This document shows positions 62,501-64,000 of a stretch of 64,000 bases of DNA, in pieces. This DNA comes from Anolis carolinensis (Eukaryota). Position numbers: made by a program. Position 1 is the stretch's first letter; every line of letters begins with the position of its first letter. Location of the stretch: NCBI RefSeq assembly GCF_035594765.1, contig NC_085844.1, positions 94,565,923 to 94,629,922 of the forward strand, written 5' to 3'.

Positions 62501-64000
62501 ACTGACTGATATTTCTAGTAAGTAAATCTCTGTGCTGAACAGAAATCCCTAAATGGAAGTTCTATTGGTTTAATATCCTTGGTTGTAGGGAGAAGGGGAA
62601 GTGTCTGAATGGCCTTCCAGGTACTCGTCTATTAGCTGGAATTTTGGATCTGAGAAATTGAGACTAAGCACTGAGATTGATTTAGTACTGATGGGACCTA
62701 ACTTGTTTCCTCCATTTAGGGGGCATCTCCTGGCATTCAGGATCCAGTCCTCCATTATGTCGGTTAATTGCTTAACCGTTGATTCTGCAGCTAGTCTGGC
62801 TACTTCAGGTTCACAGTCAGCTTGCCAATCTGGTGATCCAATACTGTCCTCATGTTCTTGGCTGGGGCAATTTCCTGGAGGTGCTGCAGTCAGAATCCCA
62901 AGCTCTACCAGACCCACCAAAGCTCCAATAGTAGCTTTTAGGTCAGACACTTCCCTTTGCAGCATATCCATTCTCAGAAATAAATTTTCTGCTGTCTGCT
63001 CTACTAGGAAGCATTGGTCTCGTATGAGGTCATGCAGTGAAGGGATGGTGTTCTCCGGTGGTATCGAGTCAAGTCTGCCAATCCTATCTTTTAGAGTGTT
63101 TATAATTTCTATGTAAGCAGCTGATTGTCTTTTCGATGGAGGTGGAGGGGTCAGTTCCATCAAACCTGGGTCAATGGACCAATTAGCAGCACCTTCATTA
63201 AGGGAAAGTCGAGCACTAGACGCAGCCTCATCGTCCTCATCCATTTTCTCTGCTGTTGTACAAATTGTCTTTGAAATACCTGCTCTGCCCAATGCAGTCA
63301 AGTTCATGAATTCAGGATCCAGCTGGTGTTCACTTGCTTCTGGTTCTTTCCCAGTGTTTTCTGGATCATAGTATTCTAGAATTGACTTCTGAACTAGGTT
63401 AGGCACAGTGTTGATAGTGGAGGCTTTGCGTAGCTGGGCCCTTGTAGAAACCATCCTAGTGGATGAAAGCTTCTCAAGCTAACAAAACCAGAACAGGTCA
63501 GTCCTCCTGTACTTTGTGCCTTTTCCAACACATATGGCTCCCACTGAATGATTCAAGATACTAAAATGCTAGATTAAAAGATACTAAAATGGCAAAATAG
63601 TAAAGTCTAAAAAAAATTACCTAATGCAAGAAATGTTCCACGCCCAGATAGAAAGGGACCTGGATCTGCAGTCTCCTCTCAAGTAGTTCCAAAGGCAGCA
63701 ATAGAAGGGCTGGCTGGAGGTATTCTGACCCCTTCTGCAGCAGTGCAACAGACTCGCCAGGAACTTGCCCCTGTGGCCAGCAAACTTGGTGTTGACTTTC
63801 TTTAAGTTGTAAGTGTCCCGGAACTTCAAGCTCTGACTTGCTTGGTTGTTTCTTACACCTTCCTTTTTTCTTTCTCCTTCTTACTCTTCTTCAGCATTAG
63901 AGTAAGCTCACAGCAAACAAAAGCTTTTGACTCTGTGGCCACCACAAAACTGACTATACTAGCAGGTGAAAAACTAATTACAAGCAACTACTTGTAATAG

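What the first reader, a model, noticed from the sequence alone, without database searches (positions are those of the whole stretch)
62570..63454. Intact 294-aa orphan ORF, possibly a stand-alone or co-opted retrotransposon ORF1
Seen: an 885-bp stop-free frame from a strong-Kozak ATG, while the other coding relics in the window are short truncated TE fragments. It starts MVSTRAQ, has acidic and Pro-rich linkers, and a clean heptad repeat (L158 M162 L165 V169 L172 I176 L179 V183). No endonuclease/RT ORF2 follows downstream on the minus strand, only a MITE scrap and AT-rich DNA, with an AATAAA at 62171-62176. Established: LINE ORF1 proteins oligomerise through coiled coils, and LINE copies are normally 5'-truncated, so a 5' part surviving without ORF2 is the unusual configuration; L1TD1 is a known domesticated ORF1. 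Inference: this is either a young, 3'-deleted LINE (RTE-X-like is my unverified guess) or a lineage-specific gene under selection.
Basis: partly seen in the sequence, partly recalled or inferred. Interest (0 to 1): 0.75.

Follow-up and report, generated by a model that had tools for sequence, protein, structure and literature searches.

The report
Orphan lizard coiled-coil protein ORF
An intact 294-codon reading frame encodes an acidic coiled-coil protein whose only named relatives are two unnamed-function proteins of an agamid lizard; it is a real coding sequence kept open by selection, but nothing shows that it is a retrotransposon ORF1.

Summary
Window 62570-63454 (minus strand) is a 294-codon ATG frame. 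It is the longest in the window and was reached by 0 of 200 composition-matched simulations. The heptad, the Kozak context and the AATAAA are as described.

It is a true coding sequence. An exhaustive phmmer search of 1.84 billion representatives gave 4 relatives (E 1.5e-11 to 1.8e-7). Two are 'hypothetical protein, partial' models on two chromosome-scale contigs of Phrynocephalus forsythii. Identity to these relatives is 29-44%. Neutral decay to about 65% identity leaves 1 of 1000 copies stop-free, so coding capacity has been selected.

The LINE ORF1 reading is not supported:
- No Pfam domain of any ORF1 type matches.
- The pI is 4.5.
- There is no RT or endonuclease relic within 12 kb downstream.
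- There is no poly(A) tail or target-site duplication.
- RTE elements generally lack an ORF1.

An unclassified or ORF1-only element is not excluded. My best reading is a small lizard-restricted gene family encoding a self-associating adaptor with an N-terminal PIP-box-like motif.

The parts
62570..63454 (-). Intact 294-codon ORF (ATG to TAA), one uninterrupted coding block
   Evidence: 0 of 200 simulations reach this length. Codon-position GC is 0.54/0.43/0.39, with G 0.32 at position 1 and 0.15 at position 2.
63479..63481 (-). In-frame TAG 8 codons upstream of the ATG, so this ATG is the first possible start in the frame
63368..63391 (-). Residues 22-29, QKSILEYY: fits the canonical PIP-box pattern and lies in the N-terminal block shared with P0002 (QKSIEDFC)
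   Evidence: 58 of 20000 shuffles carry the strict motif; the non-coding control gave 4 hits in 33226 residues. Consensus from PMC6881253, introduction passage. Alignment.
63161..63184 (-). Residues 91-98, NWSIDPGL: conserved short motif (P0002 NWSLDPGL, P0001 NWPADPAM), followed by PPPP at 103-106
   Evidence: block 81-100: 19 of 38 aligned cells identical.
62891..63037 (-). Residues 140-188: the best-conserved, hydrophobic helical core with the heptad repeat 158-183 (DQCFL ... KAT ... LGIL, then AAPP)
   Evidence: 8 of 8 a/d positions; 1 of 2000 shuffles. (blocks 141-200: 0.38-0.56 identity; a/d positions 162, 165, 169 hydrophobic in every aligned relative). (this segment is on the folded side of the charge-hydropathy line).
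62735..62809 (-). Residues 216-240: second conserved block, probably a helix, shared with P0004
   Evidence: ORF vs P0004: 43.8% over 80 aa without gaps; block 221-240: 11 of 30 cells identical.
62171..62176 (-). AATAAA, 394 nt downstream of the stop; candidate polyadenylation signal (inference)
   Evidence: No A-tail follows; the longest A-run nearby is 6 nt at 62125-62130.
62306..62398 (.).
   Evidence: no further copy in the window; DNA fold z -2.25.
63479..63620 (-). Candidate 142-nt intron in the 5' UTR: GT after ...TTAG at 63621, CTGAC 19 nt before the AG, a pyrimidine run, AG at 63480-63479. Read by eye only; no tool predicted it and no relative's DNA was available.
   Evidence: sequence. 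Inference, untested.

Best explanation
The ORF is a genuine protein-coding sequence of a small, previously undescribed protein family with no recognisable domain. Its only named members come from a lizard.

Shown: the protein is acidic (pI 4.5) and built of conserved blocks separated by poorly conserved, acidic or proline-rich linkers. The blocks are:
- a short basic N-terminus followed by Q-K-S-I-L-E-Y-Y, which fits the canonical PIP-box pattern;
- an NWSxDPGL motif;
- a roughly 50-residue hydrophobic helical core with four to five heptads;
- a further conserved block near residues 216-240.

Inferred: the heptad core makes the protein self-associate (a dimer or trimer by leucine-zipper-like packing). 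The short linear motifs in the flexible arms dock it to partners, the N-terminal one possibly to the sliding clamp PCNA. It would then act as an oligomeric adaptor rather than as an enzyme or a nucleic-acid chaperone.

Coding capacity in this family has been kept by selection. I read this locus as a host gene, or a member of a small host gene family, of squamates: one coding exon, a candidate short 5'-UTR intron and a polyadenylation signal about 400 nt downstream. I do not read it as the first ORF of a LINE. Whether the family began as a mobile-element or viral gene is open.
For: Real and non-random ORF.

Coding-type codon-position composition, with GC3 (0.39) and CpG o/e (0.24) equal to the window background (0.39, 0.25).

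Relatives:
- 4 of 1.84 billion representatives at E<=0.001: P0001 1.5e-11, P0002 9.1e-10, P0003 5.4e-8, P0004 1.8e-7.
- One more weak relative, P0005, came from the profile search.
- P0002 and P0003 are KAJ7324504.1 and KAJ7332373.1, 'hypothetical protein, partial' of Phrynocephalus forsythii, on contigs of 137.5 and 133.3 Mb.
- P0002 aligns from its own Met-Val start through residue 202 of the ORF, with 7 gap openings that all keep the frame.

Selection: substitution-only neutral decay leaves 52 of 1000 copies stop-free at d=0.1 (80% identity), 1 of 1000 at d=0.2 (65%) and 0 of 1000 at d=0.4. Observed identities are 29-44%.

Block-wise conservation: 0.38-0.56 in residues 81-100 and 141-200, against 0.14-0.21 in the linkers.

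Heptad: 8 of 8 positions, 1 of 2000 shuffles, and hydrophobic at 162, 165 and 169 in all aligned relatives.

PIP-like motif.

Against a LINE:
- no ORF1-type or other domain;
- no PDB relative;
- no RT or endonuclease in 140 segments across 12 kb;
- no tail or target-site duplication;
- the region 62000-64000 is unique in a window where two dispersed repeat families occur 6-7 times each;
- no longer fused form among proteins of 516-2000 aa (which the tool itself calls weak evidence).
Against: No annotated relative turned up from any other squamate proteome, although the searched collections draw on NCBI and UniRef. A conserved, expressed host gene would be expected to be annotated in several lizards and snakes.

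The agamid genome has at least two copies on different chromosome-scale contigs, 84% identical over 96 aa. P0003 and P0005 look like N-terminally shortened or decayed copies. P0001 carries a proline in the heptad core. A mix of intact and decayed dispersed copies is what a mobile family, or a gene with retropseudogenes, would leave.

The exact ORF is not in the 15-billion-protein collection, so no annotation or transcript-derived model supports it.

The basic N-terminus followed by a disordered region and a coiled coil resembles the front half of L1 ORF1p (PMC5940361 abstract and passages).

The PIP-like motif is a post hoc find. The non-coding control rate (4 per 33226 residues) predicts about 0.035 per 294 aa, and P0002 lacks the second aromatic residue.

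Expression, synteny, copy number in the source genome and the fold were not testable here.
Confidence: 0.45

Rival explanations
1. The ORF is the first ORF of a non-LTR retrotransposon of an unclassified ('type V') ORF1 kind. It would be either a copy that lost its ORF2 part or a non-autonomous ORF1-only derivative comparable to mammalian HAL1. The coiled coil would assemble the protein on its own RNA.
For: [quoted passage not shown] Several diverged copies exist, some decayed, on different chromosomes of P. forsythii. It is absent from curated lizard gene sets. Unclassified ORF1s exist in the CR1 lineage (PMC4120745 passages). ORF1-only HAL1 elements are known (reference cited in PMC4161310; the HAL1 paper itself was not read). 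The window holds LINE relics.
Against: No RRM/CTD, CCHC, PHD or esterase match. The pI is 4.5, with no basic surface beyond residues 5-10. No RT or endonuclease lies within 12 kb downstream on either strand. There is no A-tail, microsatellite tail or target-site duplication. The region is single-copy in the window. There was no usable hit by features to any Atlas cluster of 50 or more members for P0002, and only sub-threshold leads for P0003. Only 5 relatives turned up in all protein searches.
Confidence: 0.27
2. This locus is a recently made, still-intact but functionless duplicate (a retrocopy or segmental copy) of a functional gene that lies elsewhere in the genome. Selection would have acted on the parent, not here.
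For: The coding part is intronless. The family is multi-copy with decayed members in another lizard. No annotation holds this exact protein. Substitution-only decay gives a mean of 3.0 stops per 0.1 substitutions per site. At the squamate rate of 0.0013/site/Myr quoted in PMC13295347, a dead copy can stay open for some 10-30 Myr.
Against: There is no poly(A) remnant or target-site duplication. No multi-exon parent, or any closer relative than 44% identity, exists in the protein collections. CpG o/e and GC3 sit at the local background, which does not suggest a fresh arrival.
Confidence: 0.15
3. The ORF descends from a viral gene, for example a phosphoprotein-like oligomerisation factor of an RNA virus, that was captured in the germ line and then kept or duplicated.
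For: The layout is acidic and largely disordered with a central oligomerisation coiled coil. The Atlas feature search with P0003 listed paramyxovirus phosphoprotein clusters at ranks 12-13 (score 0.75).
Against: Scores below 0.9 are leads only by the tool's own control figures. There is no Pfam or PDB sequence match to any viral protein. No other virus-like frame lies nearby.
Confidence: 0.04
4. The ORF is a chance open frame in non-coding DNA.
For: It has no known domain and no annotation.
Against: 0 of 200 simulations reach this length. It has four significant protein relatives and coding-type codon-position composition.
Confidence: 0.01

Closest known systems
L1-type (type II) ORF1p, Pfam Transposase_22
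   Same: It has a positively charged extreme N-terminus, a disordered stretch, then a heptad-repeat helix that could drive homo-oligomerisation (PMC5940361 abstract and passages).
   Different: It has no RRM or C-terminal domain (no Pfam match at E<=10). The heptad run is only 4-5 heptads. The protein is acidic overall (pI 4.5). No ORF2 follows.
HAL1 ('half-L1') ORF1-only non-autonomous elements and the domesticated L1TD1 gene
   Same: Both are precedents for an ORF1-like frame standing without ORF2, as a mobile element (HAL1) or as a host gene (L1TD1) (PMC4161310 abstract and discussion passages).
   Different: Both are recognisably L1 ORF1 by sequence, and this protein is not. HAL1 copies are numerous and carry L1-type ends; here no tail or target-site duplication was found, and copy number could not be measured.
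Unclassified 'type V' ORF1 of CR1/L2-lineage LINEs
   Same: It is a first-ORF-sized protein in which no known domain can be found (PMC4120745 passages).
   Different: Type V is defined by its place upstream of an endonuclease/RT ORF2, and that context is absent here.
PIP-box proteins with an N-terminal clamp-binding motif
   Same: Residues 22-29 fit Q-x-x-[LMIV]-x-x-aromatic-aromatic (PMC6881253 introduction passage). They lie in a flexible N-terminal arm that is conserved with P0002.
   Different: No homology to any known PCNA partner was found. P0002 has Cys at the eighth position. Binding is untested.
CCDC184 / DUF4677 (PF15726)
   Same: It is a small vertebrate coiled-coil protein family. 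It was the first hit by language-model features for P0003 (score 0.84, 161 of 256 features).
   Different: The score is below the tool's 0.9 threshold for more than a lead. PF15726 was not listed for any of the 5 family members at E<=10. No comparator sequence could be fetched to test it directly.

Membership tests
L1-type (type II) ORF1p | Coiled-coil domain N-terminal to the RNA-binding part | tested here: met
   A heptad run at residues 158-183 has 8 of 8 a/d positions hydrophobic, reached by 1 of 2000 shuffles. It is only 4-5 heptads long.
L1-type (type II) ORF1p | RRM plus C-terminal domain (Pfam Transposase_22 and its split models) | tested here: not met
   hmmscan against Pfam-A at E<=10 gave only Cep192_D6 (E 0.11) for the ORF. 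Across all 5 family members it gave only that and DUF4988 (E 0.02). The PDB sequence and profile searches found no ORF1p chain.
L1-type (type II) ORF1p | Followed on the same strand by an ORF2 with endonuclease and reverse transcriptase | tested here: not met
   0 of 140 stop-free segments of 45 aa or more in 51860-64000 match RT or endonuclease. The nearest RT fragment is 11.8 kb downstream and below the Pfam cut-off. Other copies of the family could not be examined.
L1-type (type II) ORF1p | Basic, nucleic-acid-binding protein | tested here: not met
   The pI is 4.54, and D+E exceeds K+R in 8 of the 10 successive 30-residue blocks. The expectation that ORF1p is basic rests on PMC5940361 passages and recall.
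ORF1 types I, III, IV (RRM+CCHC, PHD, esterase) | Presence of the named domain | tested here: not met
   No Pfam match. The type definitions come from PMC4120745 passages.
Type V (unclassified) LINE ORF1 | First ORF of an element whose second ORF encodes endonuclease/RT | tested here: not met
   Not met at this locus. For the other family members the DNA context is not testable with these tools.
   No RT or endonuclease lies next to the ORF. PMC13295347 section 4.2 passage states that RTE-clade LINEs generally lack an ORF1. No RTE reference sequence was available for a direct comparison.
HAL1-like ORF1-only retroposon | LINE-type 3' tail and target-site duplication around the unit | tested here: not met
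   There is no A-run longer than 8 nt within 1.5 kb downstream. The longest direct match between the flanks is 11 nt, with no tail beside it, and 10-mer matches also occur in shuffles (mean 0.63, maximum 6). The window ends 546 nt upstream of the ATG, so a 5' end further out cannot be seen.
HAL1-like ORF1-only retroposon | Many dispersed copies | not testable with these tools
   No squamate genome collection was on hand. It is single-copy within the 64-kb window, and there are 5 relatives in all protein searches.
PIP-box (PCNA-interacting) proteins | Canonical motif Q-x-x-[LMIV]-x-x-aromatic-aromatic in a disordered region | tested here: met
   QKSILEYY at residues 22-29 fits; 58 of 20000 shuffles carry the strict motif. 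The consensus comes from PMC6881253.
PIP-box (PCNA-interacting) proteins | Motif conserved in relatives and bound to PCNA | tested here: inconclusive
   Only P0002 covers this region. It has QKSIEDFC, which keeps 3 of the 4 defining positions. Binding is not testable here.
CCDC184 / DUF4677 | Match to PF15726 | tested here: not met
   PF15726 was not listed for any of the 5 members at E<=10. The Atlas feature score of 0.84 is only a lead.
Taxonomically restricted (orphan) gene family | Relatives confined to one lineage, none elsewhere | tested here: met
   The exhaustive phmmer search of 1.84 billion representatives gave 4 hits. Profile searches gave P0002, P0003 and P0005 only, and none among longer proteins. 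The two named hits are from an agamid lizard. P0001, P0004 and P0005 are unnamed records whose organism I did not trace. The prokaryote genome scan gave 0 confirmed of 51 pattern matches.
Taxonomically restricted (orphan) gene family | Purifying selection at an orthologous, expressed locus | not testable with these tools
   Only family-level maintenance of the frame is shown. No orthologous DNA, synteny or expression data were available.

The most novel reading that the evidence does not exclude
The ORF is the best-preserved member of an undescribed, squamate-restricted gene family. Its product trimerises or dimerises through a short zipper and docks to the replication clamp PCNA through an N-terminal PIP box. 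That would make it a lineage-specific replication- or chromatin-linked adaptor, perhaps born from a mobile-element or viral oligomerisation protein and kept by the host, for instance to interfere with such elements.
Probability: 0.1. Interest if true: 0.65.

Novelty: new member of a known kind. Interest (0 to 1): 0.35.

Why it matters
If it is a host gene, it adds a lineage-restricted, fast-evolving protein family that current lizard annotations miss. It would be a candidate example of how new genes arise in squamates, whether from mobile or viral sequence or de novo. If it is a mobile element's ORF, it would define an ORF1 kind with no nucleic-acid-binding domain and an acidic charge, which would not fit the chaperone model of ORF1 function. 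In both cases the family is small and poorly sampled, so the value is modest until a genome census and expression data exist.

Tried and rejected
- Pfam, NCBIfam and PHROGs scans of the ORF and its relatives gave nothing at or near significance.
- PDB sequence and profile searches gave only syntaxin SNARE motifs (E 0.66) and YbaB (E 0.64), which are heptad noise.
- The word-indexed protein search with the single ORF found none.
- The profile search among proteins of 516-2000 aa for fused ORF1-ORF2 forms found none; the tool calls this weak evidence.
- Atlas: the ORF and P0004 are not held. P0002 gave no usable feature hit and structure TM scores of 0.36 or less. P0003 gave only sub-threshold leads, CCDC184 at 0.84 and viral phosphoproteins at 0.75.
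- A candidate 16-nt target-site duplication (61560-61575 / 63456-63471) was rejected, because no tail adjoins it and such matches occur in shuffles.
- LTRs or terminal inverted repeats around the ORF: none in the window.
- Rfam and tRNA scans gave nothing.
- tblastn of all family members against the window found no second copy and no further exon.
- The prokaryote genome scan gave 0 confirmed hits.
- D-box and KEN degrons: only bare RxxL strings and no KEN, so these were dropped.
- Transmembrane reading of residues 175-193: dropped, because the relatives carry charged residues there.
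Full report
**1. The observation**

- An in-frame TAG lies 8 codons upstream, so the ATG is the first possible start. It has A at -3 and G at +4 (sequence; the Kozak rule is recalled).
- It is the longest ATG frame of the window; the next are 209 and 170 aa. In 200 second-order Markov simulations of the window, 0 reached 294 aa (mean longest 147, maximum 230).
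8 of 8 a/d positions hold L/I/V/M in a proline-free 28-residue stretch, which 1 of 2000 shuffles of the protein reached.
- The AATAAA at 62171-62176 is there.
- The 'MITE scrap' is a single pair of 23-nt inverted arms at 62306-62328 / 62376-62398.

**2. It is coding sequence**

Codon-position GC is 0.54/0.43/0.39. G is high at position 1 (0.32) and low at position 2 (0.15), the usual coding signature. GC3 and CpG o/e (0.24) equal the window background (GC 0.39, CpG o/e 0.25).

The exhaustive phmmer search of 1.84 billion representatives returned 4 proteins at E<=0.001:

| Hit | Length | E-value | Residues of the ORF covered |
|---|---|---|---|
| P0001 | 118 aa | 1.5e-11 | 83-181 |
| P0002 | 196 aa | 9.1e-10 | 14-201 |
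| P0003 | 181 aa | 5.4e-8 | 140-202 |
| P0004 | 92 aa | 1.8e-7 | 166-246 |

- P0002 and P0003 are KAJ7324504.1 and KAJ7332373.1, 'hypothetical protein, partial' of the agamid lizard Phrynocephalus forsythii, on contigs of 137.5 and 133.3 Mb.
- P0001 and P0004 are unnamed Logan records on contigs of about 1 kb. The exact ORF is not in the collection.
- A profile of the five sequences (A1) found only P0002, P0003 and a weak, decayed-looking ENA fragment, P0005, among proteins of 50-515 aa. It found none among 516-2000 aa.
- Pairwise identities to the ORF are 29-44%. P0002 and P0003 are 84% identical over 96 aa, and P0003 and P0005 are 56% identical.
- I take the window for squamate on the strength of these hits. 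Nothing suggests human sequence.

**3. Selection**

The results:

| Substitutions per site | Amino-acid identity | Copies still stop-free |
|---|---|---|
| 0.1 | 80% | 52 of 1000 |
| 0.2 | 65% | 1 of 1000 |
| 0.4 | 45% | 0 of 1000 |

- With 29-44% identity between members, and with P0002 aligned from its own start through residue 202 of the ORF by 7 frame-keeping gaps, the family's coding capacity has been under selection for most of its history.
- Conservation is block-wise. Identity is 0.50 in residues 81-100 and 0.38-0.56 in 141-200, against 0.14-0.21 in the linkers.
- This shows selection on the family, not necessarily at this locus. A mobile element under selection for its own propagation, or a young copy of a gene elsewhere, would look the same.
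- At the rate of 0.0013 per site per Myr quoted in PMC13295347 (passage), a mean of 3.0 stops per 0.1 substitutions per site means a dead copy gains its first stop after some 25 Myr on average, sooner with indels.

**4. Anatomy of the protein**

- The protein is 32.3 kDa with pI 4.54.
- Residues 1-30 carry the few N-terminal basic residues and QKSILEYY (22-29). This fits the canonical PIP-box Q-x-x-[LMIV]-x-x-aromatic-aromatic (PMC6881253, introduction passage). P0002 has QKSIEDFC at the aligned place.
- The strict motif occurs in 58 of 20000 shuffles. It also occurs 4 times in 33226 residues of non-coding six-frame segments of the window. As a post hoc find it is a lead only.
- Residues 31-139 fall on the disordered side of the charge-hydropathy line. 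They hold the conserved NWSIDPGL (91-98) and PPPP (103-106).
- Residues 140-190 are the hydrophobic, best-conserved core with the heptads.
- Residues 191-215 are acidic and disordered. Residues 216-240 are a second conserved block, shared with P0004. The last 50 residues have no aligned relative.

**5. Is it a LINE ORF1?**

ORF1s fall into five types: RRM+CCHC; coiled coil+RRM+CTD (Pfam Transposase_22); PHD; esterase; and unclassified (PMC4120745, abstract and passages). The evidence against a LINE ORF1:
- None of the named domains is found in the ORF or in any of its four aligned relatives at E<=10. No ORF1p chain appears in the PDB searches.
- The protein is acidic, whereas L1 ORF1p is described as strongly positively charged in its conserved part (PMC5940361 passages).
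- Downstream on either strand, 0 of 140 stop-free segments of 45 aa or more in 51860-64000 match RT, endonuclease or any transposon domain.
- The only RT relic of the window is a sub-threshold RVT_1 fragment at 50313-50729, the 1 match among 136 segments of 70 aa or more in 4-52257.
- No A-tail, target-site duplication, LTR or terminal inverted repeat bounds the unit. The window ends 546 nt upstream of the ATG, so a 5' boundary further out cannot be seen.

What keeps the mobile-element reading alive:
- The front half resembles L1 ORF1p: a basic tip, a disordered region, a coiled coil.
- Unclassified ORF1s and ORF1-only HAL1 elements exist.
- P. forsythii has two diverged copies on different chromosome-scale contigs.
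- P0001, P0003 and P0005 look partly decayed.
- No curated lizard annotation holds a relative.

**6. Host-gene features**

- The coding part is one exon.
- By eye, the 5' flank holds a donor-like TTAG|GTAATT at 63621/63620, a CTGAC 19 nt before an AG at 63480-63479, and a pyrimidine run. Together these make a candidate 142-nt 5'-UTR intron. No tool predicted it and no relative's DNA was at hand, so it is inference only.
- I built and searched no joined (spliced) model. The coding exon was searched as it stands.
- The region 62000-64000 is unique in a window where two dispersed families of about 310-330 bp occur 6-7 times each.
- The P. forsythii models came from a pipeline merging ab initio, homology and RNA-seq evidence. 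904 of its 20194 genes are without functional annotation (PMC10113879, passages of sections 2.5 and 3.3). Which evidence supports the two models I could not see.

**7. Verdict**

- The ORF is real, and it belongs to an undescribed, very small protein family kept open by selection.
- The best-supported mechanism is inferred from the anatomy: a self-associating, acidic adaptor with docking motifs in flexible arms, possibly a PCNA partner.
- I put host gene or small host gene family at 0.45, an unclassified or ORF1-only retroelement at 0.27, a young dead duplicate at 0.15, viral descent at 0.04 and chance at 0.01.

**8. What stayed unchecked**

- Copy number and flanks in the source genome and other squamates, synteny, dN/dS and expression.
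- The CCDC184 lead (Atlas score 0.84) beyond the negative Pfam scan. No comparator could be fetched.
- Supplementary files of the papers.
- The N run at 3570-3705 was left as it is.

Noticed in passing
window 55593-56988: This is a tandem array of GT-rich units (periods 136-138 and 172-174 nt, 87-90% matches, about 8-10 units in all). It coincides with the strongest GC skew of the window, +0.22 to +0.34 at 54-58 kb.
   Followed up: no
window 5229-5540, 21137-21464, 26465-26776, 27800-28100, 54614-54914, 57478-57789: Six copies of a dispersed repeat of about 300-330 bp, in both orientations, are 92-97% identical to each other. This is a young SINE-like family. No tRNA-like head was called by ARAGORN, and there was no Rfam match.
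   Followed up: partly
window 1818-2142, 18984-19310, 35149-35463, 39517-39669, 44901-45193, 59087-59418: A second, older dispersed family of about 320 bp is 77-92% identical between copies. The 209-aa and 124-aa ATG/GTG frames at 18636-19265(-) and 44939-45313(+) lie in its copies and share their N-terminal residues, so they are repeat-borne frames rather than genes.
   Followed up: partly
window 50313-50729 (-): This reverse-transcriptase fragment (RVT_1, E 2.3e-5, 24.7 bits against a cut-off of 29.6, profile positions 10-86 of 205) is the only Pfam-recognisable coding relic in the window. It is on the same strand as the ORF but 11.8 kb downstream.
   Followed up: partly
window 15734-16291 (-): A 185-aa frame here has no Pfam match. 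From recall only, its residues look like the C-terminal part of an L2/CR1-type ORF2.
   Followed up: no
window 14543-14728 and 54131-54365: Two palindromic stretches (186 nt at 81% and 237 nt at 84% self-complementarity) appeared in the self-comparison.
   Followed up: no
window 62601-63116 (+): A 171-aa GTG frame lies antisense to the ORF. It is most simply a by-product of the stop-poor coding strand opposite. It has no Pfam match.
   Followed up: partly
window 3570-3705: This is a run of 136 N.
   Followed up: no
P0003 and P0005 (relatives, no window coordinates): Both start at the same methionine, at the place where the full-length members carry the NWSxDPGL motif, and they are 56% identical over 87 aa. 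This suggests an N-terminally shortened sub-lineage of the family, or shared decay upstream.
   Followed up: partly
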